From: Antedon mediterranea
Taxonomy: Eukaryota; Animalia; Echinodermata
NCBI RefSeq assembly: GCF_964355755.1
Contig: NC_092674.1
Span: 13,888,001-13,952,000 of the forward strand
Direction: 5' to 3'
DNA length: 64,000 nt
Below the pieces are notes generated by a model, which ran no database searches, was not told the origin of the DNA, and saw only the letters and a list, made by a program, of their open reading frames with translations. Positions within the stretch are counted from its first letter, which is position 1. Each line of letters starts with the position of its first letter. Positions 11,896 to 54,851 of the stretch are shown here, piece after piece. Made by a program: the position numbers and the translations under genes.

Positions 11896-12167
11896 TCACA
11901 TCTCTTTCTTGGTTTCTAGTAATTTTACAATATCCATTCTCTCAACTGCTCTCAAGGCTTTTACTACTTCCTCTCGTTGGTTCACATCCCTTCCTTGCTT
12001 ACATCGCCATTGTACCAGTGATTCCATTGTTGCTTCTACAGTCAGCGCTGAAAACCTTCCCTCAGTTTGTGATAGCTCAACATCAGCAATACCAAGATGC
12101 CTACAGAAATTCTTCCAATCTGTCATCTTCTCAGAAATTATCAGGAAGTCCAAGTCTGTTAAGCATC
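11896..12167 (-). CDS. ROCO gene terminal exon: death domain 4 and stop
   Basis: CLTDLDFLIISEKMTDWKNFCRHLGIADVEL...MESLVQWRCKQGR...VVKALRAVERMDIVKLL; DD pattern W..L.R.LG..L..W..L..AL..R.D. Confidence 0.9.
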
Positions 12168-15100
12168 CTGTAAAAACACATTTAATTGACTTCATTAAAT
12201 AAAATACATTTGGTTGTTTTTCTTCAAACATTCAGGTGCTGAAATTAAGCAACATTTCTGGAATGTAACATTCTATTTGTATTGGCAGAAATCATGAATA
12301 ATGCATGAGCATAATTACTAATTATTTTCTTATTATTTTATTCTTAGAATTACAAGATAGCTAACCTATTTCCTGAATACAAGAGAACTTAACCCTCGAA
12401 AATATAGAAAATGTGTCCTTACGTAAAATACATATTGCACAATTTCATCACAACAACATAAGTTACATAAATATTTGATCGTACCCCTGAAACATGGGTC
12501 AATATTGGATGTAGTTTACTGATTGGAGGCATCTGTATGGCCAGTAAAAATACACTTGTTTTATCGGTGAAGAATGGGAAGGCATGGATCATTCTCTTTT
12601 ATGTTTTTTTCAGATGCGTGTTCATTTTAGACACAGTTTTGTTTGTTTGTTTTTATATATCTAGGCAAATTTCCAAGGATAACAATAAGCGAATTCAATC
12701 ACTATCCTTCTTAAGGTGGCAATCCCATTCACAAGACAAACATATACACAAGATGCTCTACATAAACGAAGTCTTATTACAAGTCTTTGGGGGTGGAGTT
12801 GTATTTGTCATTATAAAACATCCTGACATATGACAGGAATTGAACCCAGGAGCCATGGATTGGTAGCCAAATTAGCTTAATCACATTTAAAACATTTCTT
12901 GTTTATCGAATGATTGCTGATGATAATAGAAAGTCAAATAGTGAATATTTCTACAGTAGTATCAGGTATACATAATATAACATTTGTTTTTAATAACAAT
13001 CATTACCCACCTTGTCCTGATTGGTCTGTAAACACTGCAACTTCTAAACTGACATCATCTTTGTATTCATATCTTGTACACAGGCTATCAGCTAAATCAA
13101 CACGTCCTTGTTGTTTTAAAGCCTTGATCATTGTAGGTAGTTGATGTGCTTCTGTATGTTGACAGTTATTTCTCCATTGGACCAATACCTCCATTATGGC
13201 ATCTTCTACATGTTTGTTTTTGTCTGCAATGTTATTAACGTTGTCCCATTTGATTCCAAGTCGCACTGCTAGTCTTCTCCAACTTTGATGTAACTTTTCA
13301 CAGAAGAATAGGAGATCTTGATCATCAAAACAAGCTGTGAAATAATAAAAGCAATAAGGTAATGAGTTTTCTTTCAATTAAATTAAACTCCCTATTCTAT
13401 TCAATATTTTATTTCGGAATCTCTCGTTCATAGAAAATAATATAACAAAAATACAATCAATTAACAAATTTATGTAAAAATATGTTTATCAGAACACATT
13501 TTTTAAAGCATTTAGTACTATGAGCAAGATTTTATAACACACATAAGAAGATTCATAATTTAATTTGAGAATGTGAGTCAAATTTTATTTAAATGTGCTA
13601 TTGCTCTTGTAATGACGTCAATGAGAGTGCAATGTTGTTATATGTGCACACAAGTACCTGTAATTTCATTTGGCACTTTCATTTTTGTTACACGGTGAGT
13701 GAGCAACAACAGGTTACAATATTGTTGCCTCTCCTTTCATCAAAAGTAGATGTGTACTCATAAACATTCATTACTTGTATACTATTTAATGGCACGAATC
13801 ATTACAATATAAAATGCAATATACCTGAATGTTTGATAACCTTGGGCATTTCATTGTCACCCTTTATGTGAAACAGCAGATCAGCAAGATCATTACGACC
13901 ATGTTGTCTTAGTGCAGTACACAATACTTGTTGCTGATTAAGGTCACTACCACTTTTTCTCCTCCAACGTTTCAGCATCTTTGCTGTAGCTTTATCTGTT
14001 TGCTTTTCATTATCAAAAATAGTATTCACTTTAGACCATGTAAGCCCCAAACGAACACCAAATCGTCTGCAGGAAAGATCCATCTCTCTGGACACATTGT
14101 CAATAGTTAGGTCATCCACATAGTCTATATCAAAAAACAAAATTATCAATCAATTGTGTTTTTAATCCTTCACAATAGTAACTAAACATAATAATTATTT
14201 TATCATAATGTATACCTTTGTTATCCTTGACATCTGACATCCTCCTTCGTTTACTAGATCCCTTAACTTTTGATTTTAGAGATGTTTTCCCCTTCATCAT
14301 TTTATGAGACTTAGCAACAGTATCATCATCAGCAGTATCAGATTCTGGATCTATGTTCTTCTGTCTACCAGCTTCTTTTGAGGTAGAAGCTACAATGACA
14401 ATACAAAAACAAAAGAGTGATAAAGTTAAACCAAGATGTACAATTGCTTGTTTTGTATTGTATGTTTATGTACTATTACTCTTTTAGTTATAATAATCAT
14501 AAATTAAATTTAGTTATTTATGAATGTATTAGTTTGGCAATATACACTAATGATAATTTCTGTATTAGCTGAACAGTTTTTTATTTTCAATACTTTACCA
14601 TCAACTTGTTGACATACAGTATATTGCGATGTATAGTGTTGATATTAATTTATATCTGTGAAAGTCAGTTGCATTCAAAAATCGCATGGTTTAAACATTA
14701 AAAACCTAGAATTGTAGTGTACGATGATGATGATAACAATTCATAATAAATCTTTCACCATCAACTGCACCTTTGTCCTTCTTGGAGGAAAATAATCTCT
14801 TCACTTTACGAGTGATTTTTTGAAGTCTTGAAGTAGAAGCTTGTGCATTGCTGTGACCATCACTGTCAGAATCTGGAGCTATGCTTTGTTTTGTACTATC
14901 TTTCGATTCAGATGCTAAACAAAAATAAATCGAAAAGCAACATTTTACAAACTGTATAACCTAGATGTACATCTTCAATAATACTGTTTTTTTTAATTCT
15001 GTGGGTTATCATAAATGATGATGACACAGACTTATTATAAAAATCTAAAAAAAGTTTTTTTTTTTTTAATTTTTTTATTGTTCTTCTTATAATGAAATAA

Positions 15101-18100
15101 CATACAATTAATATTCATTTTACATGAATGATGCAAACAATGTCTTATATCCTTTAATTAAGCAAATCATATAAATACCGTTTTTCCTTCCTGTTGTCCT
15201 TGTCGTGTTTGTATCGTCGTACATGTCCGTCCCTGTCTGTCAGTAGCTAATCTTCACCTTATGCTTATTATTAATATGTTTAACTTTACTTTATTCTTAA
15301 TGGTATTCTCCAGGCATAATGCAACTATTTTTTACTTAATTTCCAACCATTTGTATCTATCATATTTTTTGTATGTGTTTGCATTATCTGAACTTGACTT
15401 GAACTTAAGTATACTTAAATAAATAAAGAATACATATATATTCTTTATTTTCTAAATTATTAACTTGAATCCTCATTTATTTTGTTTTGGTTTAGAAACA
15501 TTTTTTTTTTATCTTACTTCATCCTAAAATGTTAACCTATATCAGTTTCACTGATGGATACTACACAACACAAATCCTCTACCTTTTAGTACAATGTCTC
15601 CAAACAGATTACGATAACGTTTCACTTCCATTCCTCTGCTTCCACATGGCAACACATCTTTGTCAAATTTGCGTACAACATGCATATGAGTATGTTCACC
15701 TTTTGAACCACACACACAAGGGATGTACATCTTTACTTTAACACCATGTGCATTCTTCTCACTCAAAAAGTGCAATTCTTTTTCAAGAAAAGTTAGTACC
15801 TATAAAATAGAATAATTTGATTTAGTTGATTATTTTGCTACCCACAACAAAAAAGTAGTATTAGCTATTTAAAATAATTATACAAACTAAAATTAGTAAA
15901 TAGAGCAAAGAATGATAACATGTAAGCATGATTCCGAATAGGATCACCAAAACATATTAAAATACAAAATACATTATTATTTTACTATTAAGTGTACATT
16001 ACAGTTTAAATAAATAAATTATTAATTATTGTTTAATTTGGTTTAAACATCAAAATTGTTAATCTCTACATATCCAACTCATAAACATTATTTTCACATT
16101 AATTTACCTTCTTACAGATGCTAGGTTTTGGATCATCATCTTCAGGAAGGCCAGCAGCATTCATCATGTCTGTTCTAACTATTGTTGTCTTTGGGTACTA
16201 TTACTTACCTTCTTACAGATGCTAGGTTTTGGATCATCATCTTCAGGAAGGCCAGCAGCATTCATCATGTCTGTTCTAACGATTGTTGTCTGCAATATCA
16301 AAAATCATTTTTTGTTTTATTTCATTTGACAATTGTTTCTCTTGAATTGTCATTAAAGCAATTGCCACTTAATCTATAGTCTATATATAATCTATATGTA
16401 ATATTATAAACATACAAGATGAATGAAAAAAACACCTTTAGGTGTTGGCAAGATAATTGCCATATTTTCACCGATTTTCTGCCAACATGTTTCTGTTTGT
16501 CTGTCCTATAATGCTTAGTGTGTTTTATTTATAGTTATATTAATTTTTATATAATATAAAAATAACGCTTAAAAGAGAACGACGTTTCGACTCCATCATG
16601 GGGTCATTATCAAGTCCAATGAATAAAATATAAAACAACAACTAATTAAGTAGCACAAGCCAAGGGTCAAAGTTTAAATAACAAAAGACCTATTGTCTAA
16701 CATCCTGTCAAATGAAAAGCTTAGCTTTTACAGAGTCACTTTGTTTATTCAGACTAGGTTTTAATTGTCTGATATACAACATTTCATAGATAAGACAGTC
16801 AAATTTGTTTTTGCATTTCCTAAGTATACTAAAACATGAATTAATTTTACTGGGATTAACAATCACTTTATGATCCTTCAAATGCTGTCCTATTAAGCAT
16901 CTACTATGTTCAACAATGCGTTGGTAGAGGTGTCGGCATGTATATCCAACATAACTTGCATCGCACAAGTCACATTTAAATTTATACACAACACATTGTT
17001 GACTTATAATAGTTGGTTTCTTTTCGACTTTCCTAATGTTATCTTTAACTTTTTTACTTATGAATACAGGGACAATGTTTTTGTTTATCTTGTGACTTAG
17101 TTGGCATAGTTGTCGCTTGACGGAGTTCGCAGATTTCTGGTCTTTGAATGGCAGGATGATTCGCACTGGTATTTCGGATAGATCTGTTTCATCTTCTGCA
17201 GTGTTGTTATTGCTCTCTGCTGGTTTAAAGTTCTGTATGGTTGTTGTTATTAGTTCATCTGGATATTTCAGACGCTTAAAAATCTTCCTTAGAATTTCAC
17301 ATTCATCATTAAAAAGCTGGTGGGTCGACGATAGTTTGTAAGCCCGATTTAACATAGTTATAATAAGTGACCTTTTATACTTGTTGTCAACGTGACTATT
17401 GTAGTGTAGCAATAAGCCTGTGTCTGTTGGCTTTCTGTAAACCCGTGTGTGCAATTTTTCCAAATCTTTGGTTATCAGCATTCCTAGGAAAGGGATTGAA
17501 TTGTTCACGGCAGTTTCCATTGTGAACGCTATCGCAGGATGGGTTGTGTTGAGTAAAGCTAAAAATTCATTGGCTGCTTCTAGATTTGGCATGAATACTA
17601 GTGTGTCATCAACATACCGTTTGTAGTATTTGGGCATGTGGTTCGTAGATTCAAGGCGTTCCTCGATGTGGCACATAAATACATTTGCCATAAGGGGCCC
17701 TAGAGGTGATCCCATTGCAACTCCATCAACCTGTTCATACAAGTTACCATTAAATTGGAATAGCTGATCTTTCGTTGCTATATTGAGGAGTACAATTAAA
17801 TCGTCCTTATCTAAGTTTAGTCCATAATTATCATTGAACCAGTTGTTAGTAAATGCTTTATCAGCAATAATTTGAATTGTCTCGGTTAAAGGAACATTTG
17901 TGAATAAGGACGAGACATCATATGATACCAAAATATCACTAGCATTAATAACGGTGGAGCGTATATCAGCTGCAAAGCTAAATACATCATCTATTGTATA
18001 TGCGTTCTGGGATAGCGGTTTCAACTTCTCATCCAGCCACTGAGCTAATTTATAATTGTAGGTACCTGTTGCTGACAAGATTGGTCTCATAGATAACTTT

Positions 18101-21100: not shown

Positions 21101-24100
21101 TATTATGTATTTACAATAAACGTACTCTCATTATTAATTTTTATGCAGGTAAATGTTGAACAAGCATTTGCTTTTTATTTTAGTCTATTTCAATTTTACT
21201 GTTATTTTATTATGTTATATCTATAATGGAGAATATAACTGAAAATCTAAAAACTGATAATGTTTCCATTATAATTCTATCTGAGACTGATATTTTCTCA
21301 GAGGTAATTAAACATTTATAGTTATGTTCCTAAGATGATACTTTCTCAGATTTAGTTTTTAGTCTTATAACATCAATTTTATTAAGTCTACCTGAAACAA
21401 ACGGCAATTGTTGATAGTAGCTACATTTAGAACCACAAAATGATGGCCATCAATATGCAGTTCTACATGCTCATATGACAATGTAGGTTCAACATCTTCC
21501 ATTTGAAATTCCTCAATAAATTTTGTTGAGACACGTTGGAAGAGATCATCTGGTAGGTAGCCATCAAAGTCATGAAATAGAGAAATAGCACGTTTCTCTT
21601 CATATTTAACAGCCTTTGTATCATCACGTTGGGGCTTCAGGCGTGAAAGAACGTAGAACGTTCGTCCAACATTCTATAGAAACAAAAATGGAACAAGAGT
21701 AGTAGATGGAATATATGAAAAAATAATTGAACTAAATATTTTAAATAAAATGTAAATACCTCTTTACTCCTTTTTTCACACATTAACCCAAAGGTTTGCA
21801 TCAGAGACACAAAGAAGATAATCATCTCATCTGAATCATCCTTCCATATATGCCGCAACAGTCTTTCATCTAGTTTACCTCCATTTAAATTTCTCCAAAG
21901 CTGTTTCAAAGATGGCTAAAAAAATATAAAAGCACAAGTGTAATTTGTCAATGCAACAAAGTAATTACTGTTCTTCTGGTCAGTAAAACCTCTTATTTAG
22001 GACAACCTTATTGAAACTTACTTGTGCAATGAATGAGGTTAACATCACAGCTAACATCTATTAAGGGGACACTTTGTTGGGTCTTCCCTTAATGGGAGTG
22101 CTACAGTAATACGCTTACAAGCATATATTTTAGTATTAGAATATAATAGAATTAATAAGATATAATTTCGTTCTCTGTGTGGCAGATATTACATGTTTAC
22201 AGAAATCCATCACACTGAAAAACAATGTTTACATATGATATTCACCAATGACTGACACCACTCAAAGAAGTGAAGTTTGCAAACCTGAAGGCTGGGATCT
22301 ATAACTGTAATGATTGTTTTAAACTTGTCAACTACTCCCATCAAATCTATAACAATTTTTTCTTTGAGGATCTTGTCATCTGGGTAGAACAGAATCTCAC
22401 CGATGTCGTGCAAATACTCAAGAAACTGTTTTCTGTCAGTTATCTTACAACTAGCAAGTAAATCATTAATCTAAAAGGCAAAGAAATATTATAATGAAAA
22501 ATTTAACGAAAACAAAAATGTTGATTAATTACAAACTGGTTTTCTGTTGATGTTATCAATCATTTCGTTAATGTTGAAAGGTTGTTTATATAGGACATAA
22601 TATTTTATCATGCAAGGGTAGATTTGACATCTGAAAGTTTCCTAACCAACAGTAAACTCAAGGTTCACCACTTACTTACTTACTTCAATAATTGTTATTG
22701 CCAAACAAAATGTTCATTTGGTTTTTGGCACAATTGGTACTAAAACAATTGCACCATTCCTGTTTGATAAACATTTGTTGAAGATTCACCATAAACAGTC
22801 AATTAACACAGACAGCAAAGCAGGGATACTGTTAATGTTACTATCAATAACAAGTTTTTTTTCACTTTAACACCATTCGATGCAGCAATACAAAAACAGG
22901 GTTTAATGCTTTAATGTGATTTAAGAATAAACAAATGTAATGGATGTTAAACACTTATTATTAAAACACCAATCAATTTTGTTATATAAATGTATATATT
23001 CTAACCTCAGATGTTGGTAGATACAGTTTGTCTTTTCGTAACTTTTGTATTTCCTGCAGTACTTGTAGCCATTTGATTGGCAAAGTAAGAATCATCATCT
23101 GGACTAATTTTTGTATTTGGAGAATGATTTTAGAAGCACCGCTCTTTTCAAATGAGACACTGTTTTCAATTGTAAAGAGCTCTTCTTGAAACACCATGTC
23201 CTCAAATGGTTTTCCTTCCAGGGCTTTCCAAAGTTTATTCTCTATTGCCTTTACCTAAAATAAATAACATCACATTGGAATTAAACGTATGTATGGGGAA
23301 AATTTAAAGGGTGCCGTACCAGACAAGACCCCACCCCCACCCAATTTGTAAACTGCAACAAGTCTTTTATTTAATTTATGTCACGCATTTATGTACCCAG
23401 TGTACACTGGTATAATTATACCAATATAAGAAAATGTGTGCTAAATCATAGACATTTGTATACCCTTTTATTTGTTTTATTATAGACCTAACAGATGGAA
23501 CATTATTATCACAATGAAAGCGCACATACTGTAGTATTTCATTTATGAAATAATCTTAGATTTTTACAAAAAAATATCATTTGAAATACTTTTAATCTTT
23601 AGCCTACATATATTTTTAATTGAAATTAAGGTAAGATAATCAGTTAATCATAAGCCAGCACAGTACAGTAGTATGTGCATGTCATGACAATGAAACAACC
23701 GTCCACCGGATTACATAATATGGACTTTACGAAACAGGATGGTTAGTTTTCTCTGTTCGCTGGAGCGCAAATTTATAAACAAGACAGAGCCATTTTATTA
23801 GTTACCCACCACGTGAAGACGACAACGAACGGTCAGAGAGAGAGAGAGATAACCATGTCTACTAGCCTACTAGACTATAATAGGGCTACTCTAGCTAGGG
23901 GACCTACCTAGGCTACTTACTAGATATGGGTGTATTGATTTGGGTTTATGGCCTAAAAGCTAGAACAGCATTATCTCTAGTCTCCCTCCCCTGTCTCACG
24001 GGGTCCCTATTGAATCTCTTTGCCTTGGTGGTACGACATATGACTAGCCTTTCTAGCTAGGGACCTTGCAAACAAACGCCGCGCAAAATGTATTGCACAG

Positions 24101-27100
24101 CAGCAATTTTAATCCAAAAACAATGTTATTTCGTTAAACTATTAAATTAGAAGTGAAAATTACACTTTAAGCAGGGAAACAACTCCCTGCTTTAAGTGTT
24201 TTGAACTGTATATTTAAGGTTATATATACTAGTTGTATTTCTAATCGTTCTTCATGAGCACCTAATAGTATGAGCATGACATGACGTATAAAACAATCGC
24301 CCACCTGATTACACAATATATGGTTGCCAATGTTAGGGATGAAACTACATATTGTTTCCAATGAATCAATTACAATATACAATTTTGTAATGTTTAATGA
24401 AACAAAATATGATAACATATGTACCATTTGTTGTCTTTCTTGTTCAGTTTTACCAAGGCTCTCATAATGTGTACCAATCAGCATTATCTTGTTTTTCTGT
24501 CCTGTTCTTACGTTTACAAAAACTGAACGAATCCAAAACAGAATGAGCTCAAGATTTGTCATTCGATGTTCATACATTTTTCCCTAAATCACAAAGAAAA
24601 TGAACAAAAGTTTCATTTTAAATTCTTAAACAGGTAGTTTGAAAACATTGTGGAAAATTATCTTATTATTGTGGTAATAATAGCAGCACACATTTATATA
24701 GAAAAATAACACTATCATGGAAATGGAAATAACAACAATCATGTATCAGGCCTCTCTGCTATTTGCACAGTTTTTGTTAAGGTAAAGGAAGATTTAGATT
24801 TTAAGATTTATATATATTTTTATATGGTATAGTTTATTCCATTCTGTAATGGGCGGGTTTCCCGCTGTTGAATGAGTTTGAATAAAAATAAAATAAAATA
24901 AGAAATAAACATTTTATGTATATTCAAGTACATAGAACATTTGAAATTTGTAAAATCTACTTACAGTTGTTGGATCACGAACTTTAGCTGGGGCATCAAG
25001 ATCTTGATTCAGGTTAAATACCACACATACAACAGCATAAGACACCATGAATATCTATTAAACATAATCATATTTGTCAGTATTAAAAACCGTTTATACA
25101 CATGTGTCAGTATACTGGCACAACTAAATATTTGATACTTATTTTTTTCCTCACAAACTGCATGTTCATCTTGGAAACATTTACAATCTTAAACATTAGT
25201 TTAATAAATAATGAATGTTTTATTATTACATTCTCTCTCCCTCCCTCTCTCTCTCTCTCTCTCTTTGCTATCCATCTATGCTAATATTACATTATGGTAG
25301 ACATCAATGAATACTATTTTATTAAAAGTCTCCCAAACCTGGATACCCTTCGGCTGGCAAAATATTTCTGAGTTTACAGAAATTCTGATATTCAAAATGT
25401 ATTTTTAAAGGTAAAAAGAATTTGGAACTTTTTTGACCTCAAGTCTTGTTTGGTTTCTGGTAATTAGGGACTAGAGACTGTATTGAATTAAATGAAGAAT
25501 AAAATAATTTATAATACTAGAGGGTGAGCTCGCTTCGCTCGCTCCCCCTCTAGGAAGTGTAGACGATGGTTCTCGGAATGATAATGTTCTCCTTATACAT
25601 TTTCTGTCGGTTACCATTATTGAAAATGCTTGACATTCGTAAAACTGAACTACTTTGTTTCACAGTGTTTTAGATGATTAATAACATTTTAAAGTATAGT
25701 TTTTATTGTTTGGTAGGGCCCTTTGGGGAGGCGGAGGTCATTTGAGGGAGGTGCTTATTCGAGGGATATATGTTACATTTTTTAGTTCTAATAATATGGT
25801 AACATTTATAATCAAATGAAATCCTCTCATAGATATGAAAAGTGGTAAAAAAGAGTAACAAATGCTTGGTAAATTGCAGATAACAGTGCGGTGAATTCTA
25901 CTACAAATAGTATAATTGTGTTATTATAAATATGTGGATGGACGTTTATTAGATAGTTGGGTTGTGGGGGGGGGGGGGGTTATTATTCAAAGTGATGTTT
26001 TATTGGAGAGGCGTTTATTCAAATGAATACCATCCTAATAATTATTAATACATTATTTTATTTAATCATCTTTTGAAACTAACTGCCGTGACAGAGTGGG
26101 CCCAAGAAAGAAGACATTACGGCTTGCAACATGGGCAGACATCTCGGTCCCAACGGGACACAGGGAGATAGCCTACAGTTATTCCTGCAAGCTTACTCAA
26201 TAAACCTCAGCTATCGGGATTTCACTCGAAAAATGTCTTATCAAATCTCCCTATGTAATTTTATAATACTATTCCCCACAATATATTCTGATTCTTTATG
26301 GCGTATATTTAATTTGATCTTTATTAATTTGCAGTATAATTCCTATTATTTAACTACTGTACCTTCACACACGTGTGGTATGTTTTAAAATAAACAAAAA
26401 ACTGAAATGGCTATGATTAATGGCCAATTTTTTTTTCGTCTTCCAAAGGGACACTGTATTGATTGATGGAAAGTGCCTGTTTCACCTTTAGGGTCAAATC
26501 TATTATTTTAACTGCTCCCTTGTGTATAAAAGAGAGAAAATATTTGAAACTAAGGTGAACTTATCTTAAACCCGGAAATTACTTTGACCGGGAAGAATTG
26601 AAATTGAGAGGAAAATCCAATGTTGAAATCATAAATGTTGTTAAAATACTCTTTATAATATCTTCCTAAGATATAAATATGGAACAATAGCGTCGGCGTG
26701 CACACTAATGTTATCAAATCTACGTTTCGCGGTACATCTCGGATAGATAAGGTAGGTATCCAAGGCGGAGATTTGTAGAGAAGTTTTTGCATTGTGCTCG
26801 CCTATGTCAGAATTAACCATAATTTATATATAGATTGTAATAATAATAATTGTATTTTATAACTGTTACCATATTAGACCAACATATGATAACATTTTTG
26901 TAATACCTTGGAGGTAGATTATTACTTCAAATCAAGTGAGTGTCAGTGGTGAAATTGTAACGAAGCCAAAAGACAATTTTACTAGATCCTGATCCCAACA
27001 CAACCTCAGAAGGAGGTATATGTATTAATAAGTACAAACTCTTTAGTAAGGTACAAGTATATCTTTATTCTATGGTGTCTCAAACTGAACTGTACAAAGT

Positions 27101-30100
27101 TATGGGTAAACGGTGATCAGTGATTGGCTATTCTGGCATGATAATATATTACTACTACTGTAGTATTGTAACAGGAGGCATACTAAATTAAAGGCAAAAC
27201 TAAGAAATTAGGTAAATCAATACAATTTACCCGTTGTATCACATGATATATAGGCTGCCCTCCAAAGTCCCAGAGGTTCATAACAAACTTGTTGCTGTCC
27301 ACTTTAGAGTCACCACCTATTCTTACAGAGCGAAGTTGGCTTTCAACTTTGTTCACGACCACTTTAGGAATTTGTGGTCTATCAAGTTTTTCTTCATACA
27401 GTGGTTCTGTTGTGATAAAATAATAATACATAATACAACAGTTTAATTCAATATCATTTCAACATTTAAAAATAAAATAGAAATCCATCATAATAAAGCT
27501 ATTCCTTTTTACTTAAATCTTGATGATTGTAAAAACAGACAAGACAGATGGAGGCAGGCTGAGAATATAGAGCAGAATGACACTATAACTGTTTTGTTAA
27601 AAGAAAAGGTATTTCCAATGCAATATTTAAGCATTCTAAACCTTATCCTTTCCAATCAATGGTTTAGTGATGAGTTTATTTAACCACATTGTACTGCAAG
27701 TTGAATAGATTACACAGCAGTGTCATACAATATACAAATACTAGTATTGACTGTCAAAGTAACTTTCAAGATAATATGTTCATTAGCATACACTGATGAT
27801 TATGATTAAATTTCCGCTCCTTAAATCATTTCAATATTTCTGATATCATTACTATGTATGAACAGCACAATCAGGCACATTTCAAAATAAATATTTACCC
27901 TTCTTTTGTGGGCTTGGCATTGAATTTGAACTTTTTGAGGTTTCAGCAAATTTGGCTTCCTGTTTTGATGTTGATGCTCCTGTGGGATTTTTCTCTTTCT
28001 CATGTCTACTTTCTGAAAAATGTGTTGATATAATTAAATATGATGCTATCTTGTAATAAGGAGCATAATACATTAACATTCAATAACATTAAGCTTTATA
28101 ATCAAATTAACTTGACAAGAATTAAAGTTTACAGTAATGAATCATTTTTTTTGTATAAACATGTCTTTTTATATTAAATTGTATATGTATTTTCTAAAAT
28201 CATTTTTGTACCAATTTGTGGTTTTGTATTGTTCAATTTATATAGACTACTTTTTTTATATATACAGTTAAACATGTTTTACAGCAGATTACAATAACAA
28301 TAAAGACATTTTAACTAAATTTGAATTAATTGTAATTAACATCTTTTACCAGATTTGGTTTTCTCCTTTGATGGTCCTGCTCTTTGTGTGTATCCTTCTG
28401 TATAGCGTGAACTTTTCAACATTTGTTTAACTGTGACATCAGTGACAGCATCCTGATACATGTCTGAAGCTTTTTAATAAAAAAATGTTAATAAATTCAA
28501 ATTATATTATTTTTTACACAGTTATACATATTGGTTTTTAAAAGCATTGAAACCATTTTAATGTTGTTGTTGCAATAATTGATCCTCCTTGTTCAAAGTG
28601 GATAACTATTATATGATATTAAAATGGCATATTACTTATTTGGTAAAAAAAAATACAAAACACATTGTGGGATGATAGAGCATGTCACAGGGTGAATTAA
28701 AAAAAATATTTTGGTTGTTTTTTAACAGCAACATGTATGTGAATAAAGTGAATACTTACAAATATCCTGCGTTGTTTCTTTCAGCATTTCTTTGTTACTG
28801 GCATCTGGTGTACACACCGTTGTTTTAACCATTGCATCTGTTATTATATGCACTGGATTAAACCTATGACAAAATGACATTATATATTTATAAAAGAATG
28901 TTTGCATTAATAATCTAGAGACACATAATTTGATGGTATACTGCAAATACATTGTTTTTACGTTGAATTATAATCTTATTTTAAACCCTATTTTGAGGTT
29001 CACAATATCCTGTTGAAAACAAATTGAAAGCATCTGTTTCTATCGTAACTTTCCACTTATCCTTACAGACAGTATAGACCCTCAACAACGTGTGTTCACA
29101 GGAACTATGTGTGTACAGTTATATACCAATCAAACAATAATACATCTACGCAATAAAATATATAGGACACTGTTCCCAACTGCAAGTAGCAAACAATCAA
29201 TCAACAAAAATTGATACAATATAATATAATGTGCTTACTCTTTTCTTAAAAGAGAATTGATAGTAGAAGTTTTTCCAACATTTTCAAGTCCTACAAAAAT
29301 AGTTCTTCCTTGATTAAACTCTGTTTGTCCATCTTCAAGTGCATTTTGAAATGCTTTCACCGCATCAGGTCCTCTTGCCAATATCTCCTCTGGAACATGC
29401 ATATCTTAAAATAAACAAAATAAATTATTGTATAATTTCCTACTTTCATTTTTTCATGGAAATTCTAAAGATCTTGGTATCTGAAATATATGCCTGTCAT
29501 TGGCAGAAAAAACAGTGCCAACTCATTATTTCACATAGGCTATTAAACAAGAAAACTCAGATATAGAAAACTCAGAAATATTCATTATTAATCAGAGGAA
29601 TTTAAACAAATTTTGTATACCTTTATAAAATATGTCATTGCAGTGTTATAGATTAGGGTTTGCATAGTTTTATTAATGTTTTTATTTAACTATTAAATTT
29701 ACTATATTAGCTCAATATTATTTAACAGCGTAGTAACCTGAATAGCAGAAGAAAATCTGAGTGTTCTAGAACTAGAAATATCAGATATATCTGAGATCCG
29801 AGTTTTCTAGACACCCATTAAACAGTGCATACAATTATTGTAATCTTTATCAGGATTTTCTTTTCTTTATTTATCCAAAAAAATGTGAGAAATAGCATAT
29901 TAAAAGGAATGCAGGAGATCACAAACATATTGGGAAATAACACTCCTGCAATTATTGGGAGAGTTGGGAGGTCTGAGTCAGTCTGGAAGTTAGCATACAG
30001 CCAGCTGTCTTCACTTACTGTCAATTATATTTGCCAACTCTTTTTCATCAGATTTCATGAGCGCTTTAACAAGTTGCGAACGCTTGGACTCAGAAGTTGA

Positions 30101-42100: not shown

Positions 42101-45100
42101 TATCAACCCCCAGCGCAATGAGTTTGTTTAAGAGAATGTTGTGGTCGATCAAATCGTAGGCCTTTTTAAAATCCAATAATAAAACTCTAACCTCTTAGAG
42201 ACCCCCTAATATAATCCCTGTTTATTAAGAGTGAGTGTGTAATACCTACCAAGCTTGGTCACAAATTATTAACACCCAACTTTTATCGCAAAAACCGTGA
42301 ATTTATGTTTATTTATTTATCAATTTATTTTATTTTAATTCATTTCTTTTTTAAGGCTCGCGCGCCCAACACAATATATTTGTCTTCATCCTCCAGTCTG
42401 CCTCAAAGTCGTACCTCATATCATTTTGTTATTGCATTGTACGTTATTATCTTTTATGCTTGTAAATAAATGTTACGAAACTAGTGTCAGCTTTTTAAAT
42501 AATCTCCCGCTTTTTAGCTTCTAAAAGGCACAGCATGCATTTATACATCTTACTTCTAGGACGTCGACCTTGTATTCCAAAATGACAGTCTTTTTACACG
42601 CGTTCAAGAATTCATCAATCTCTTCTTATCGTTGCGGCATGTTCTTTGATCGGCATATCAGTTACCGTTTATTACTGATACATCATTCTTGAGACGTTTT
42701 AGTGGGGACTCCACCCCCACTAAAACGTCTAAATAATACATTATATAGGGGGCCTCTGTTTTCGAGCTTTTCTCGAAAATAGAGACCCCCTATATAATGT
42801 AATATTGAGACGGTTTAGTGGGGGTGTCTGTTAAACAGAGACCCCCTATATAACGTATTATTTAGACGTTTTAGTGGGGGGGGGGGGTGTCTCGGGTCTC
42901 GATGTCTCTGTTTTCGAGACACCCGCATCACAACAGACTGAATCGAAAAGGACGACGTGGTAAGAAAATTACTTTTCAATTATAATATTATGTATTATGT
43001 TGTTAACTTGCTCATGAACGCTCTTACACCTCTGGGACGAGTATCGCGCAGGCCAACGATCGGAGGAGAGATCGCTCCTTATGCTGGATCGCGCGTTATA
43101 TCAAATGATGTTCGCGATTTGTAGATGAGATAGATGTAAATATTGCTAATAAATAAAAGATTAAATAAATAGATAAATTAAATAACGTCTGTAGATGTAA
43201 ATCGAGGTAAACATTGTTAATAAATAAAATATTAAATACATAGATAAATTAAATAACGTTTGTAGATGTAAATAAAAAGGTTTCAATATTCAATTTGAAT
43301 GATGAATGTAAACATTTGTATATGCGTTTTTGTTTTAAAAATAAAAGGATTGAATTGAAAAACAGTGTGAAACGAGTTTGTTTTGCATTAAATTAACGTA
43401 TCTATGTTTTGTTTTTAAATATATGTAAATAATTGTGTATATGTTTTTGTTTTGAAAATAAAAAGATTGAATGACCATTGACAAAAGTGTAAAGTGAGTT
43501 TGTATGTTATTTTTCCCGTCAGAAACAAATAGAATATTTACAAAATATATCAAAATATAATGCTTATAAAAACATTTAAAAAAAAGTTAAACTAATATTA
43601 TTAACATATTGTTTTTACAATATTTATTTAAATATAATGATTATTATATAAAATCATTTTTAAATAAACACCTAAAAAACAATAGAGACTACACTTCGAT
43701 CTTTATTTAGAGCTTACAGTGTACAGTACTGCATTGAGCGGCGTTCCATAGAAATCGCCGGAAGTTCGATTTACCGGAAGCGCGACCGAAATGAAACGCG
43801 ACCGAGATGATCCGATACCTAATCGGTGTGGTGAGGCATTTATGTTCGGTGTATAAGACGCACCCTTAATTTAGAGGTCAAATTTGCGTGTCAAAAGTGC
43901 GACTTATACACCGAAATATACGGTATATTGTGAATTAGATCGCTGGCAATAATGCATGCATATAAAGTGTAATAGCCCTCCGACGTACTAACAACAATGG
44001 GACGTCGTGGTTTTCTAGGCGCTGAAGCTACGAAGTGAACACGAATAATTTTTACTGTATAATATTCCCCGACGAAAGTACTCGCGTTCCCCGCTAGGCT
44101 CCCCGACGAAGGGGCTTCCCCCGTAGATTATTCACAACTTACTTTGTTTTTGCGATTTAAATCAGCATGCTGGGCTAATGCTATACAGCTTGCAGTTTGA
44201 CCTACGCTAGCAGCTAACAAGAGTGGTGTATTTCCATCCTAAAAATAGAATATAATATTTCATACAATATTACAAACTTCTTAGCAATGAGGAGGCATGG
44301 TTATTAATGTGTTTAATTTGTTTAAACACATTAATACTAACTATTCATATATCTTTTTAAATCATTTTTTTAAATTCAGTCATGATTTTAACTTTTCATA
44401 AATAAAAGTTTACCCAGTGAAGATATACACTGATCCATTCCATATTCTTTCAAAAACAAACATCCATATTTTTATTGTTTTTTCCTGTGCAAACATGGTT
44501 TTATATTGCTATCTATACATGTTGGTACTGTATTACTAAAAAAATTGAATATATATTGTTATAGTAGTATAAATAATCAAAATACAACTAGTATGACCAC
44601 ATTCTAAAACTTCTGATGAAGTTTTATAAATTTCTCTAAATAAATCAATGATTGAAATGATAAAATAATGGCATTTCAACAAAGTATTACATAGGCTGTG
44701 TACATCATAAGTTAACAGTTTTTAGTCTGACTGAGCTTTATATCTCCATGATTTGGTAGACTGTGTTTGTATTGTTTTGTGTTTGTATCTGTGTATTTGT
44801 GTTTGAACAGCAATTAACATTAATAAAATATAATATAAATACAATTGAAAGTTTTCAATGTAAATTATTTTAATTAAGATAATTTACATTGTCAGATCTC
44901 ACTCTGAATACATTTAACTCGATTTCACATTAAAAGTTAGAGTGTGGTAAGACCTTAAACAAACAATAAATTAATAGGACACATTATAACAATATTTTAT
45001 AAAAAAACTCATTACAATCAAGCATTCAAGCAGAGAAATATTATTGAAAAAGGTTTTCATAACATTGCAGAAGTAATTAATTTTCTCCCTGGTCATCTTA

Positions 45101-46662: not shown

Positions 46663-46704
<42 letters not shown>

Positions 46705-52700: not shown

Positions 52701-54851
52701 TCGCATTTAGATAGGATAAAGGCCGGTGCACACCGAACGCGAAGCAGCGAATTTCGCGTTAAAAGGTGACGCACGCGGCAGGCGACGGACGCTTCCAGTG
52801 TGAACATACAAGCGAACATTGTACGATAGTCGAATTTCAACTTTAACGCGTTGAAAACTACACGCGAATTTTCAAAAGTTGAACCTTGGTCAACTTTTTG
52901 AGGCGTCGTAAGCGCGGTTCTCGTTCGTCAACCAATCAGAACTCAGGAATATCCTTTATCATTGACGATCGACATCGCACCGACGGAAACAAGGTTGCTG
53001 ACGAGTTACAGATGACGGACATGAGCCAAAGCCCGCGGGAAACTCATGCCTTGACGGAGGTAGTGTTGTAACCAAACAAATTCGACTAAGAAACTTGATA
53101 CGAATAGCAACATGGAATGTGAGAAGTATGGCATCCGGAAAACTAGGCACAGTCATCAGTGAAGCAACTCACTACAACAAAAGTGTTTTGGGTGTAGCAG
53201 AGCACAGGTGGGCAGGACAAGGACATTTTAGACAAGAAGAAAGTGGTATGATAATCTTTTCAGGAAAGGAGATATCAGGCAATGGAGGTGTTGGAATTTA
53301 CCTTGAAGAAAGGACCTCTAAATCTTTGCTGGGATATAATCCAATAAGTGATAGGGGGTTGTCAGTAAGGTTGCATGGCAAACCCATGAACATTACACTA
53401 TTGTAGGTATATGCCCCAACAAGCACTGCAACTAACTAAAAAGTTAGAAAGAACTGACGGAATGGGGGATTTCCCTTCTTGTTGATGCTGGGCGCGGCCG
53501 AGCCTAGGTGAGAAAAGACATTGCTTTGATGAAATATAAAGTGCGTCTTATACATCGACGATATACAAAATACCGATGTTTTACTCTCCGTTAGGGGGTG
53601 CGTCTTATACACAGGTGCGACGTATACACCGACATATACGGTACACTAAATTCTAAAATATTTAATTAGGCCTGCTAACAACGACCTACTGTGTATTAGG
53701 CCTAGCCTAGGCTAGTTTAGACACGGGGCATAACGCGCTCAAAACAGAATTAAAGTGTGAAACAAATTTTGGATATATGTTTGAGCTCGTTGTTTTATTC
53801 AGTGTGTTTTGTTACTCTCAAATCCGAATACAATTAACAGAGAAATTAACATAAAAAAAAAAAAATTCCAAATTATTTTCGGATTTGACAAAAGCATATT
53901 TGGCAAATCAAAATTGATTACATTCCGATTATCAGGACCTACAATGGTATGATAACGTAAACTTACTGTGAGTTTTTTCCACTTAAATTATAATAGTATG
54001 AGGTTAATTAGGCATATTTCACATAACAGAATATCGAATTTTGTTTCTCAGGTTCACTCTGCAATCACGATCTCTTTTCGCGAATTCTAATCTCACATAA
54101 ATGGGCACTGAAATCATTATTAGCAACATCTAAGCTTATACAGTAGGCATATATTTATATTTATTAATTTTTTTTTATTCTTTTACTTGGTGTCATCGTA
54201 TTAATAGGCCTATTCGTGGATACTATTTAAAAAATACAAACAAAAGGTTTGTATTTTTTTACGATGGTTTCGCTGTATCCAGTAGGTTGTCTGTTTCTAT
54301 CAAAACTCTCAAATCAACCGGCGGACGCTTTAAATAATGTTGCCGATGACTTTTATGATGAGTTTGAAGAATAAAATGAATAATTAAAAATGAGGCGTAT
54401 GCATGATTGATTTCTATAATATAAATTCTACAAAAGCGTTGTCTCCAGTTTTCATTGTTTAGGACGACATATCGAGTATGTTGTTATACAGGCTATGATT
54501 GTTATTATAAAAATATGATATGAAAATAACTATTGTTGTTATGTTGTACCATGTTGAGTTGAAGTTTAACAGAACAATACATAGTTGTAATTGTTCTGCT
54601 AATTTAGTATTATTTATATATAATGTACTATACAGTACTTTAGGTATGTTATTACCGGTTCGCCCTTTAAATTTGAAAATTAAACCATTTATTTTAATCA
54701 CACTGCACTGAACTATATAGCACCCCGTATTAATAATGTTTGTAAAACTTACATTGGTTGTAAGATCCAAATTAGCATCTGCCTTGAGTAAAATAGTGCA
54801 AACATCTGTTTTGCCACTATGTGCAGCAGAATGCAAAGGTGTCCAACCATC
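11896..54851 (-). CDS. ROCO-family GTPase without a visible kinase: ANK repeats - death domain - Roc - COR - linker - 3 death domains (23 exons, about 1306 aa, 5'-incomplete)
   Basis: Exons: 54753-54851, 36144-36260, 34615-34705, 30603-30638, 30019-30270, 29239-29404, 28760-28863, 28350-28469, 27899-28012, 27231-27406, 24965-25054, 24425-24583, 23006-23254, 22285-22470, 21760-21915, 21392-21673, 16209-16289, 15583-15799, 14759-14914, 14216-14389, 13825-14124, 13011-13334, 11896-12167. All are GT-AG with compatible phases, total 3921 nt and have no internal stop. Confidence 0.88.
12650..12885 (-). mobile_element. tRNA-derived SINE
   Basis: Minus strand has a tRNA-like head (ggctaccaatccatggctcctgggttcaattcctg, B-box GGTTCAATTCC) followed by a body of about 200 bp. 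Confidence 0.5.
13011..13334 (-). CDS. ROCO gene exon: death domain 3
   Basis: FDDQDLLFFCEKLHQSWRRLAVRLGIKWDNV...MEVLVQWR...MIKALKQQGRVDLADSL; phase 1-1 exon, 324 nt. Confidence 0.9.
13825..14124 (-). CDS. ROCO gene exon: death domain 2
   Basis: VDDLTIDNVSREMDLSCRRFGVRLGLTWSKV...KMLKRWRRK...LCTALRQHGRNDLADLL; phase 1-1 exon, 300 nt. Confidence 0.9.
15583..23254 (-). CDS. ROCO gene exons encoding the COR domain (split by the Penelope-containing intron)
   Basis: LPIKWL, FLEYLHDIGEILFY, IVIDL..VVDKFKTII, LMQTFGLM, GYLPDDLFQR; ends in a CxC..H..C-rich segment. Confidence 0.85.
16577..16616 (-). ncRNA. Minimal hammerhead-ribozyme-like motif in the Penelope pLTR (copy 1)
   Basis: GACTTGATAATGACCCCATGATGGAGTCGAAACGTCGTTC: variant core, stem II GACcCCA/TGGaGTC, GAAAC-GTC. 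Minimal hammerheads are established in Penelope pLTRs. Confidence 0.6.
16708..19209 (-). CDS. Penelope-like RT + GIY-YIG endonuclease polyprotein (intact ORF)
   Basis: KPDKG, LYGLPKTHK, RPILS, SYDVSSLFTNVP, GVAMGSPLGP, RYVDD, FLG; GIY-YIG VVYKFKCDLCDASYVGYTCRHLYQRIVEH. Confidence 0.96.
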   Translation of the reverse strand: MLFYILFIGLDNDPMMESKRRSLLSVIFILCIYNKRTLIRNLKRDDQLHLFRRLEQCSKKLVSCETSIEFLQLCQNLGLTPTFAKVDQEKSKRWSNSAKFFEKNVISEELKAKLKLLSNLRKEINTIYTEIRSQCSSFRYLAILQTMTKLRCNQYGAEMNGHSKKIANLMYRGKNVDEHIINISSYRLSFFQKLALSRGLQFAYPHRVSSREIKANFEKAYWKLEPKIVGEETKELTAATLKSIALNYIERKGPSPPKALTRALGQLKKRDDIIITKPDKGSGVVVMDRSEYEHLLCEASVNNVSKFIPISTEQPRTRGRPMTHYHPLLKKEKDMISTVHKILPKEIAKSICQTGSRLAHLYGLPKTHKEKLSMRPILSATGTYNYKLAQWLDEKLKPLSQNAYTIDDVFSFAADIRSTVINASDILVSYDVSSLFTNVPLTETIQIIADKAFTNNWFNDNYGLNLDKDDLIVLLNIATKDQLFQFNGNLYEQVDGVAMGSPLGPLMANVFMCHIEERLESTNHMPKYYKRYVDDTLVFMPNLEAANEFLALLNTTHPAIAFTMETAVNNSIPFLGMLITKDLEKLHTRVYRKPTDTGLLLHYNSHVDNKYKRSLIITMLNRAYKLSSTHQLFNDECEILRKIFKRLKYPDELITTTIQNFKPAESNNNTAEDETDLSEIPVRIILPFKDQKSANSVKRQLCQLSHKINKNIVPVFISKKVKDNIRKVEKKPTIISQQCVVYKFKCDLCDASYVGYTCRHLYQRIVEHSRCLIGQHLKDHKVIVNPSKINSCFSILRKCKNKFDCLIYEMLYIRQLKPSLNKQSDSVKAKLFI
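19145..19184 (-). ncRNA. Minimal hammerhead-ribozyme-like motif in the Penelope pLTR (copy 2, overlapping the ORF start)
   Basis: Identical to 16577-16616; contains the in-frame ATG ATG of the ORF. Confidence 0.6.
21041..21080 (+). ncRNA. Minimal hammerhead-ribozyme-like motif in the inverted Penelope pLTR (copy 3)
   Basis: Same sequence on the + strand. Confidence 0.6.
24425..29404 (-). CDS. ROCO gene exons encoding the Roc GTPase domain
   Basis: VPEEILARG lead-in; P-loop GLENVGKTS; G3 LWDFGGQPIY; VVCVVFNL; G4-like LIGTHYE. Confidence 0.92.
25517..26834 (-). mobile_element. Non-autonomous Helitron (about 1.3 kb) in a Roc intron
   Basis: Minus strand reads A|TCTATATATAAATT ... GAGGGGGAGCGAGCGAAGCGAGCTCACCCTCTAG|T: 5' TC, 3' GC-rich hairpin + CTAG, inserted in an AT dinucleotide, no TSD. 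Confidence 0.85.
30019..30270 (-). CDS. ROCO gene exon: death domain 1 (N-terminal to Roc; absent from the ORF track)
   Basis: ITTKELINIAIHVINWEQLAVNLEFTMAEIDHFKQDNP...YNMLDAWAMK...LVKALMKSDEKELANII; phase 1-1 exon, 252 nt. Confidence 0.88.
30684..31178. mobile_element. MITE-like element with internal ~30-bp subterminal repeats
   Basis: Ends tgttacaactgctaa / ttagcggttgtaaca; repeated agctaatgtagaaac-like units. Confidence 0.55.
31598..32371 (-). mobile_element. HINE/DINE-1-like (Helentron-associated) non-autonomous element
   Basis: Minus strand starts TTTTTAGTCGCGTGGACGCGACT (palindrome), then a (CTGT/CGGT)n microsatellite; a matching subterminal CACGCGACT plus hairpin lies near 31600-31630. 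Confidence 0.7.
32600..33911 (+). mobile_element. 5'-truncated degenerate CR1/L2-type LINE
   Basis: LIMFADDTNMF, FLGVIIDEKLNF, YKTLILP, LQKKALRII, HTYSTR across frameshifts; AATAAA then an (AATC)n tail at about 33886-33911. Confidence 0.85.
34615..36260 (-). CDS. ROCO gene exons: degenerate ankyrin repeat and capping repeat
   Basis: 36144-36260 NGDNAMQVCA...GSMDIYNKNK; 34615-34705 EGKSALDC...KKEIINILK. Confidence 0.75.
35045..35440 (-). mobile_element. Degenerate DINE/HINE-like element
   Basis: (aaac)n microsatellite followed by ggtgaaaacgtgacctcc, resembling the DINE-like core in reverse. Confidence 0.4.
37106..37836. mobile_element. 731-bp composite MITE, copy A (9-bp TSD, Mutator-like)
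   Basis: TIRs of about 50 bp, GCGAAATTTTCTTTACTCG.CAGATAAGGCAGAAATCATGAATAATTCATT; TSD GGCCGGGCC at 37097-37105 and 37837-37845. Confidence 0.9.
37205..37578. mobile_element. PIF/Harbinger-type MITE nested in the composite MITE
   Basis: TIR AGCCGATTTTCCACTAGGCGAATTTGTTC.CGCGAATC with TAA TSD; also present in copy B (40026-40399). Confidence 0.88.
38182..38764 (-). mobile_element. Solo LTR (Gypsy-type), related to the LTR at 62640-63253
   Basis: TGTAATATAA...TTATATTACA ends, 4-bp TSD CTAG on both sides, clear reverse-complement similarity to 62640-63253. Confidence 0.9.
39128..40696. mobile_element. PIF/Harbinger-type MITE (host of composite MITE copy B)
   Basis: TTA|AGCCCCTTTCTCACAGA ... 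TCTGTGAGAAAGGGGCT|TTA. Confidence 0.88.
39927..40657. mobile_element. 731-bp composite MITE, copy B
   Basis: Appears identical to 37106-37836 (offset 2821) but has its own TSD, GTACCGGTA, at 39918-39926 and 40658-40666. Confidence 0.9.
40772..42925. mobile_element. Foldback-like element with arrays of inverted subterminal repeats, interrupted by a LINE fragment
   Basis: Repeated gagacccccactaaaacgtctcaatatta..tatagggggtctctgttttcgag modules at 40790-41000 and inverted at 42690-42925. Confidence 0.65.
41000..42192 (-). mobile_element. 5'-truncated L2/CR1-type LINE (RT C-terminal half, open frame)
   Basis: ORF 41196-42176 has DFKKAYDLIDH, GIPQGSWIGP, KFMDDTT, LESIQRRALRI; 3' UTR with AATAAA and a (TTTATCAG)-like tail near 41000-41030. 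Confidence 0.9.
46154..46600 (+). repeat. Direct repeat (about 100 bp, period 348) enclosing a tRNA-like sequence (46411-46482)
   Basis: aatacggaactttcgccaatgagctatgc... at 46154 and 46502. Between them: A-box (taatctagtgg), stem CTCGC/GCGAG, B-box GGTTCGAATCC; the acceptor stem is broken. Confidence 0.65.
46600..46701. repeat. (TA)n/(TATATG)n microsatellite
   Basis: Directly visible. Confidence 0.95.
46720..50412 (+). mobile_element. Degenerate CR1-type LINE (zinc-knuckle ORF1 end, APE, RT)
   Basis: CYGCGGFGRIRKFC; GQINVRSL, SETWL, LLGDFNI, SDH; NYRPIS, DISKCFDSIDH, GIPQGSVLGP, FADD; many stops and frameshifts; aattc-type tail at about 50400. Confidence 0.9.
52320..53440 (+). mobile_element. 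5' portion of an RTE-clade LINE (5' UTR + APE), interrupted by a Harbinger-like MITE fragment at about 52720-53000
   Basis: RIATWNVRSM...LGVAEHRWAGQGHF...GVGI...PISDR...NITLL*VYAPTS; MITE end taa|aggccggtgcacacc. Confidence 0.8.
53470..53642 (-). mobile_element. Fragment of the same pogo-type MITE family as 37864-43923
   Basis: Reverse-complement similarity to 37864-38090, ending gtatacaccgacatatacgg|ta. Confidence 0.85.
54753..54851 (-). CDS. Ankyrin-repeat exon (99 nt, phase 0-0), assigned to the ROCO gene
   Basis: cag|DGWTPLHSAAHSGKTDVCTILLKADANLDLTTN|gtaagt, a canonical 33-aa ANK repeat. Confidence 0.88.

What the first reader, a model, noticed from the sequence alone, without database searches (positions are those of the whole stretch)
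11896..54851. ROCO GTPase with ankyrin repeats and four death domains (ANK-DD-Roc-COR-DD-DD-DD), no kinase visible
Seen: 23 phase-compatible GT-AG exons spell an uninterrupted ~1306-aa protein with one death domain before Roc and three after COR. Established: ROCO proteins (LRRK2, DAPK1, MFHAS1) use Roc-COR as a nucleotide-regulated dimerisation switch, and DAPK1 has a kinase, ANK, Roc-COR and a single C-terminal DD. Inference: with DDs on both sides of the switch, this looks like a GTPase-gated multivalent death-fold scaffold. It would be analogous to an NLR/apoptosome but use Roc-COR instead of NACHT/NB-ARC, making it a candidate lineage-expanded innate-immune or cell-death system. The frame has stayed open despite heavy TE insertion in the introns, which suggests selection.
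Basis: partly seen in the sequence, partly recalled or inferred. Interest (0 to 1): 0.85.

Follow-up and report, generated by a model that had tools for sequence, protein, structure and literature searches.

The report
Feather-star death-domain Roco GTPase family
A feather-star gene encodes an LRRK2-type GTPase module flanked by ankyrin repeats and four death domains, one of many recently duplicated, domain-swapping relatives that likely act as switchable scaffolds for immune or cell-death signalling.

Summary
The architecture is real. A RefSeq model of the crinoid Antedon mediterranea matches it 100% over 658 aa, and a 93%-identical paralogue model carries the whole architecture. Contigs of one run splice 10 of 12 introns tested.

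It sits in a crinoid clade of Roco proteins whose flanks swap death domains (up to 12), DED pairs, HEPN, TAZ/KIX and a dead caspase. A kinase occurs in 2 of 84 long relatives, neither crinoid. The likeliest function is a nucleotide-switched dimer presenting tandem death domains to caspase adaptors; this is inferred, not tested.

Caveats: the 5' end is outside the window. RefSeq truncates this copy beside a Penelope insertion. The G4 aspartate is changed. Kinase-less death-fold Rocos are already catalogued in Trichoplax, where this scan also met them before, and an immune role for Roco proteins has been proposed in print. My ten literature searches found no description of the crinoid expansion. 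Verdict: new variant of a known kind.

The parts
54753..54851 (-). exon 1 (first seen), ankyrin repeat, phase 0-0
   Evidence: Ank E 2.4e-9
44143..44238 (-). exon 2, ankyrin repeat, phase 0-0
   Evidence: Ank E 2.9e-5
36144..36260 (-). exon 3, degenerate ankyrin-like (by eye)
   Evidence: 95% to P0032; no Ank hit
34615..34705 (-). exon 4, ankyrin-like or capping segment (by eye), phase 0-1
30603..30638 (-). exon 5, 36-nt mini-exon, phase 1-1
   Evidence: 100% to P0032 and P0028
30019..30270 (-). exon 6, death domain 1, phase 1-1
   Evidence: Death E 3.3e-10
29239..29404 (-). exon 7, alpha-0 helix and G1 P-loop of Roc
28760..28863 (-). exon 8, Roc switch I (G2 Thr294)
28350..28469 (-). exon 9, variable insert within Roc
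27899..28012 (-). exon 10, variable insert within Roc, predicted disordered
27231..27406 (-). exon 11, Roc switch II (G3)
24965..25054 (-). exon 12, Roc
24425..24583 (-). exon 13, Roc G4 (Glu528 where most relatives have Asp)
23006..23254 (-). exon 14, Roc G5 and start of COR
22285..22470 (-). exon 15, COR-A
21760..21915 (-). exon 16, COR-A
21392..21673 (-). exon 17, COR-B; last full exon of RefSeq model P0001
16538..21144 (-). Penelope-like retroelement in intron 17, same strand as the gene, 13-bp target-site duplication
16209..16289 (-). exon 18, COR-B (first copy, strong acceptor)
16108..16188 (-). tandem second copy of exon 18, 20 nt after the first
15583..15799 (-). exon 19, end of COR-B with conserved Cys-x-Cys/His/Cys motif (likely zinc site)
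14759..14914 (-). exon 20, linker (alternative donor at 14771)
14216..14389 (-). exon 21, linker, predicted disordered
13825..14124 (-). exon 22, death domain 2, phase 1-1
   Evidence: (E 4.5e-11)
13011..13334 (-). exon 23, death domain 3, phase 1-1
   Evidence: E 5.9e-11
11896..12167 (-). exon 24, death domain 4 and stop; 86-bp tandem duplication at its end
   Evidence: (E 2.2e-8)

Best explanation
This is a spliced Roco (Roc-COR) gene of a crinoid-expanded family, with ankyrin repeats and four death domains and no kinase in the part seen, that likely works as a nucleotide-switched scaffold in innate immunity or cell death. Shown: exon structure, domains, fold, family expansion, and swapping of the flanking modules. 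Inferred steps: (1) the N-terminal ankyrin/DD1 part would sense a ligand or hold the protein off; (2) the nucleotide state of Roc would set the COR monomer-dimer balance, as in the Chlorobium protein; (3) dimerisation would cluster six tethered C-terminal death domains, so tandem copies would supply the valency that NLRs get from a wheel; (4) these would seed a death-domain assembly with FADD/RAIDD-type adaptors and initiator caspases.
For: Structure: open 24-exon frame; paralogue P0032 has the full architecture in one model at 93% identity; 10 of 12 introns in 11800-25150 are bridged by contigs of run X1. Switch: G1, G2, G3 and G5 match the family consensus; paralogue models fold as Roc-COR, with best hits LRRK1, C. 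tepidum Roco and LRRK2 and the whole COR matching 3dpt at target TM 0.71; three confident death domains follow a ~100-aa disordered tether. Context: of 84 long relatives, 40 carry DD, DED or CARD, 12 TIR, 3 caspase, 3 HEPN, 2 a kinase and 1 LRR. The sister subfamily has DED-type arrays (P0047), a caspase domain lacking both catalytic residues (P0076) or TAZ/KIX (P0026) before Roc. Three death domains are whole phase 1-1 exons and the fourth enters in phase 1. Death domains differ from the closest paralogue at 31 of 350 sites against 15 of 590 in the Roc-COR core, Fisher p=2.8e-5.
Against: No functional, expression-timing or binding data. The G4 aspartate is Glu here and Gly, Asn or His in sister crinoid clades, so guanine specificity is uncertain. 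The death domains match solved ones only weakly (best E 2.9e-5, 0.28, 5.6e-4, 2.6e-3), so no partner can be named. RefSeq model P0001 covers only part of DD1 to exon 17. X1 contigs may come from paralogues; the joint across intron 17 has 27 letters on its short side and maps to the duplicate exon copy. Introns 1-11 have no read evidence here. Faster death-domain change may be relaxed constraint. Some odd fusions among relatives may be gene-model errors.
Confidence: 0.55

Rival explanations
1. The family works as described or otherwise, but this copy is damaged: the sense-strand Penelope insertion in intron 17 or the duplicated exon 18 truncates its transcripts before the three C-terminal death domains.
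For: RefSeq P0001 ends with one Ile after exon 17, which fits a cryptic acceptor at 21220 beside the insertion (one of two candidate sites). The insertion is young: repeats 99.6-100% identical, target-site duplication intact. Paralogue models P0028 and P0029 read from exon 18 into the duplicate and stop.
Against: All 24 exons are open with canonical splice sites. Run X1 has contigs joining exon 17 to 18 and 18 to 19. P0032 and P0035 splice through. Contigs lacking the insertion exist in X1, X2 and X4, from another allele or from paralogues.
Confidence: 0.2
2. The protein is a damper or has a non-immune job: a death-domain sink that blocks signalling (cFLIP-like logic), or a trafficking, cytoskeletal or regeneration role as for LRRK and Dictyostelium Roco proteins.
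For: The sister caspase fusion is catalytically dead; G4 is altered; Civiero et al. argue for motility and phagocytosis roles of expanded Roco sets (PMC4104024, section 5).
Against: Rapid tandem duplication, module swapping among DD, DED, TIR, HEPN and caspase, and faster change in death domains are the pattern of conflict or immune genes (PMC8195603, section 15).
Confidence: 0.2
3. It is a DAPK1-type gene whose kinase exons lie upstream of the window.
For: ANK precedes Roc-COR and DD follows, as in DAPK1; the 5' end is unseen, and the closest RefSeq models also lack a credible start (P0032 and P0217 begin with residues that match intron sequence here).
Against: 0 of 84 long relatives have kinase-ANK-Roc-COR-DD; the two kinases are in a brittle star (C-terminal) and a sea anemone. 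No kinase hit in the 15 and 29 mostly crinoid proteins. Crinoid-clade relatives such as P0048, P0072 and P0132 start with ankyrin repeats near their first Met. The upstream exon in paralogues is another ankyrin repeat.
Confidence: 0.05

Closest known systems
Trichoplax adhaerens ROCO repertoire (Civiero et al. 2014, PMC4104024; passages and section 5 part 1 read, figure not seen)
   Same: Expanded set (at least 17 genes) with Roc-COR flanked by CARD and death domains and repeats; Roc-COR proposed as a nucleotide-dependent dimerisation device.
   Different: TPR and LRR repeats are named there, not ankyrin; no four-DD form in the text read; orthology not tested.
DAPK1 (Roco group III; PMC6337361, passages)
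   Same: No LRR; Roc-COR followed by a death domain; ankyrin repeats before Roc (recalled).
   Different: No kinase seen; one DD before Roc and three after; no DAPK-type architecture among the top relatives.
Bacterial AP-GTPase counter-invader systems (Kaur et al. 2021, PMC8195603; passages and section 15)
   Same: Constant Roc-COR core with variable effector domains (TIR, caspase, trypsin, GT4) and many paralogues per genome.
   Different: Bacterial forms use LRR sensors; here ankyrin repeats and death folds are shuffled as exons.
Invertebrate Roc-COR-DD-TIR proteins (Aplysia PMC9334734; sea anemones PMC5094078; passages)
   Same: Roc-COR joined to immune adaptor domains; the Neuralized-Roc-COR-DD-TIR group lies in the clade next to the crinoid family (support 0.937).
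   Different: No TIR or Neuralized here; tandem death domains; recent tandem expansion.
Brown-algal LRR-ROCO candidate immune receptors (PMC11378527; passages and section 10)
   Same: Expanded ROCO genes with one repeat per exon and exon shuffling, proposed immune role; the paper notes about forty domain combinations in animals.
   Different: LRR not ankyrin, no death folds; its Figure 2 was not seen and may already list a similar animal architecture.
NLR / Apaf-1 STAND receptors (recalled)
   Same: Repeat domain, nucleotide switch and death-fold output; lineage-specific expansion.
   Different: Ras-like Roc-COR instead of NACHT/NB-ARC; dimer cycle rather than wheel.

Membership tests
Roco (ROCO) family | Roc G-domain with G1-G5 motifs and alpha-0 helix | tested here: met
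   Pfam Roc above cut-off on P0001; motif table; alignment to 4wnr and 3dpu. G4 has Glu for Asp, a position that varies in this set (Asp in 78 of 143).
Roco (ROCO) family | COR domain directly after Roc | tested here: met
   COR-A E 6.5e-16; no Pfam COR-B hit, but the paralogue model matches the whole C. tepidum COR, target TM 0.71.
Roco (ROCO) family | GTP binding, hydrolysis and nucleotide-dependent dimer cycle | not testable with these tools
   Needs biochemistry.
DAPK1 group | N-terminal protein kinase domain | tested here: inconclusive
   None in the window or in close relatives, but the 5' end lies beyond the window.
DAPK1 group | Single C-terminal death domain | tested here: not met
   Three after COR and one before Roc.
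DAPK1 group | Roc-COR groups with DAPK orthologues | tested here: inconclusive
   No DAPK sequence was available for the tree; 0 of 84 long top relatives has the DAPK architecture.
NLR / STAND receptors | NACHT or NB-ARC ATPase | tested here: not met
   The nucleotide domain is Roc.
NLR / STAND receptors | Death-fold effector plus repeat domain | tested here: met
NLR / STAND receptors | Ligand-triggered wheel oligomer | not testable with these tools
   Needs biochemistry or cryo-EM.
Kinase-less death-fold Rocos of the Trichoplax kind | Roc-COR flanked by death folds, multi-copy, no kinase or LRR | tested here: met
   subject to the unseen 5' end.
Kinase-less death-fold Rocos of the Trichoplax kind | Common descent with the placozoan genes | not tested
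   No sequence labelled Trichoplax in the trees.

The most novel reading that the evidence does not exclude
Crinoids run a second, NLR-parallel intracellular receptor system built on a Roc-COR dimer switch. The slot before Roc carries sensors or integrated decoys (ankyrin-DD, dead caspase, CBP-derived TAZ/KIX, macro domain), the slot after COR carries outputs (tandem DD, DED, HEPN), and tandem death domains replace the wheel as the source of valency. CBP-type pieces occur in three separate clades of the wider family (P0026, P0104, P0166), as expected of repeated decoy capture.
Probability: 0.2. Interest if true: 0.82.

Novelty: new variant of a known kind. Interest (0 to 1): 0.47.

Why it matters
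What Roc-COR does without a kinase is open even for human MFHAS1 and LRRK2. A kinase-less Roco whose apparent output is death-domain clustering gives a simple readout for the debated monomer-dimer model. If immune function holds, marine invertebrates have a large, mostly uncatalogued receptor class beside NLRs (2479 representatives at E<=0.001), and crinoid immunity gains its first candidate family in the papers I could search.

Tried and rejected
No whole genome is held, so paralogues could not be counted directly and 5' exons could not be sought. An ankyrin profile built from exons 1-2 found no further repeat in the window.

COR homodimer prediction (P0035 residues 88-425, two copies) gave no verdict: score 0.00, alignment not used, no evidence either way. 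The ESM Atlas did not complete.

dN/dS could not be computed, as no paralogue DNA was available. Of 17 exonic variants taken from the truncated read tables, 12 are non-synonymous and 5 synonymous (8 and 2 in death-domain exons). That is near a neutral ratio and mixes alleles with paralogues, so it was not used.

The run search listed no holder on record as RNA; X1 is treated as RNA only because its contigs skip the predicted introns. X2 and X4 showed no such joints among the 15 rows listed, with 85 hidden. A CRIB-like stretch seen by eye in P0084 got no Pfam hit and was dropped. Death-domain PDB matches were too weak to name partners.

Literature: ten searches found no paper on crinoid Roco genes or on decoy domains in Roco proteins. 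Subscription papers are not covered, one amphioxus paper was not held, and figures and supplements (Civiero Fig. 1, PMC11378527 Fig. 2, Kaur Fig. 6 source data) were not seen and may bear on novelty. A look-up of earlier scan notes by sequence and by genome returned nothing.

Full report
Observation. Six-frame reading showed coding islands on the minus strand from 54851 to 11896. Exons taken by coordinate all have AG/GT ends and compatible phases, and give 1326 aa without a stop. Paralogue models showed one more 36-nt exon at 30638-30603. The final model has 24 exons and 1338 aa, or 1334 aa with a second donor at 14771. None of 2000 random joins was stop-free. Pfam finds two ankyrin repeats and four death domains above cut-off in single exons, and Roc and COR-A above cut-off on whole models. 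The first exon seen is internal, and nothing in 54901-64000 matches any of 217 relatives.

Source and independent models. Exon 17 found 27 proteins, all crinoid: 16 Antedon mediterranea and 11 Anneissia japonica. P0001 (XP_071950767.1) is 100% identical over 658 aa, every junction included, so the window is almost certainly Antedon. That model starts inside DD1 and stops after exon 17. P0032 (XP_071950759.1, 1376 aa, same 31.9-Mb contig) is 93% identical and holds ANK, DD, Roc, COR and three DDs in one model. P0217, P0028 and P0070 also join ankyrin exons to DD1 and Roc. In all, 23 Antedon-labelled 90% clusters on six contigs were met. Many are fragments, so this is not a gene count.

Splicing. 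Of 12 predicted introns in 11800-25150, run X1 bridges 10 with contigs (15 of 20 joints shown). Seven are exact; two (17/18 and 18/19) are placed on the duplicate copy of exon 18; one uses the paralogue-type shorter donor. Only four have 31 or more letters on the short side; the joint across intron 17 has 27, in two contigs. Junction 23/24 appears as a loose end matching the end of exon 23; 22/23 was not listed. Introns 1-11 have no read evidence. Contigs may come from paralogues, so this supports the family architecture more than this copy.

This copy's weak point. Intron 17 holds a 4.6-kb Penelope-like element on the gene's strand, with an RT and GIY-YIG frame, near-identical direct and inverted repeats and a 13-bp target-site duplication. 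Contigs without it exist in all three runs laid. RefSeq's ending fits a cryptic exon at 21220 beside it. Exon 18 is tandemly duplicated, and two paralogue models read into the duplicate and stop. Whether these truncations are real or annotation artefacts is open.

The switch. G1, G2, G3 and G5 agree with the consensus of 143 aligned relatives. G4 has Glu where 78 have Asp, and sister crinoid clades have Gly, Asn or His. AlphaFold models of paralogues P0028 (pLDDT 70.8) and P0035 (80.1) give DD1, Roc with a disordered insert, COR, a ~100-aa disordered tether and three confident death domains; the ankyrin part of P0028 was low-confidence. Foldseek's best matches are LRRK1, C. tepidum Roco and LRRK2, and the whole C. 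tepidum COR at target TM 0.71. A Cys-x-Cys/His/Cys motif closing COR is kept in 63, 52, 55 and 61 of 66 sequences, likely a zinc site.

The family. A full HMMER scan found 2479 representatives at E<=0.001. I scanned the 84 of 133 new hits that are 700 aa or longer: 40 carry DD, DED or CARD, 12 TIR, 5 ankyrin, 3 caspase, 3 HEPN, 2 NACHT, 2 kinase and 1 LRR. Named members span crinoids, brittle star, acorn worms, amphioxus, a brachiopod and sea anemones. A FastTree tree of 141 cores (midpoint root, no DAPK or LRRK included) puts the gene in a clade with support 0.999 whose labelled members are all crinoid; many members are unlabelled, and three crinoid representatives (P0078, P0088, P0090) fall elsewhere. 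Within it the flanks vary: up to 12 DDs (P0016), DED, HEPN, ZU5, TAZ/KIX. A Roc-only tree of 57 sequences makes the sister group (support 0.928) a set with DED-type arrays, TAZ/KIX, and a caspase domain whose catalytic His and Cys align to Asp and Ser (P0076, organism not looked up). Death domains here enter as phase-1 exons and the ankyrin repeats as phase 0-0 exons, which explains the swapping. Against P0032 the death domains differ at 31 of 350 sites and the core at 15 of 590; selection and relaxation cannot be told apart.

Mechanism. Inferred: the ankyrin/DD1 end senses or restrains, and nucleotide state sets the COR dimer. C. tepidum Roco is monomeric with GTP and dimeric when empty (PMC6337361, passages). 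A dimer would gather six tethered death domains, about the size of one layer of known death-domain assemblies (recalled), enough to seed adaptors and initiator caspases. Relatives that fuse caspase, DED or TIR in the same slots point to that pathway. No partner can be named, because PDB matches to the four domains are weak. Rivals are a truncated copy, a damping or non-immune role, and a DAPK-type gene.

Prior knowledge. Roc-COR genes with CARD and death domains are catalogued in Trichoplax (PMC4104024, section 5). Bacterial Roc-COR systems with variable effectors are proposed counter-invader systems (PMC8195603, section 15). Roco-TIR and Roco-DD-TIR genes are noted in Aplysia and anemones (PMC9334734, PMC5094078, passages), and algal ROCOs are proposed immune receptors (PMC11378527, section 10). 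Two earlier scan notes on Trichoplax say the same. Ten searches found nothing on crinoid Rocos or this architecture, within the library's limits.

Verdict. A real member of the Roco family, not an NLR, very probably not a DAPK. It is a new variant of a known kind; interest 0.47. The value lies in the swapping family more than in this one copy.

Noticed in passing
window 16538-21144: Young Penelope-like element: open RT and GIY-YIG frame (stop-to-stop 19209-16711, minus), 1035-bp direct repeat, 987-bp inverted tail, 13-bp target-site duplication; empty site in contigs of X1, X2 and X4.
   Followed up: partly
window 16104-16291, 11826-11997, 8402-8600: Three short tandem duplications (101, 86 and 109 bp; 90-98% alike) that overlap exons or exon-like stretches; the first two seem shared with paralogues.
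   Followed up: partly
P0026, P0104, P0166: CBP/p300-type domains (TAZ, KIX, Creb_binding) fused before Roc in three separate clades; decoy-like, or gene-model fusions.
   Followed up: partly
P0076: Caspase domain with both catalytic residues replaced, fused directly to a Roc of the sister subfamily.
   Followed up: partly
P0016 (Anneissia japonica): Roco fragment followed by 12 death domains.
   Followed up: no
P0049, P0050, P0102 and others: Neuralized-Roc-COR-DD-TIR architecture recurs in many relatives (acorn worms, amphioxus and unnamed); it looks like a conserved orthologue group near the crinoid expansion.
   Followed up: no
window 1256-3961 (-): Open 902-aa endonuclease/reverse-transcriptase frame of a LINE element.
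   Followed up: partly
window 5047-5310 (+): Exon-like stretch of an MFS transporter (Pfam MFS_1 E 0.0014; SLC22-like by recall), convergent with the Roco gene.
   Followed up: partly
window 8122-8773 (+): Exon-like stretches with IQ-like motifs by eye; no Pfam hit.
   Followed up: no
window 10475-11232: 44-bp minisatellite, 17 copies, 97% alike.
   Followed up: no
window 56786-61500 (+): Broken LTR-retrotransposon remnant (zinc knuckle, RNase H, integrase pieces; Gypsy-like order by recall); further broken LINE pieces at 41199-42194 and 47515-50083.
   Followed up: partly
window 37106-37837 and 39927-40658: 732-bp direct repeat, 100% identical, in intron 2; possibly the ends of a recent insertion.
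   Followed up: no
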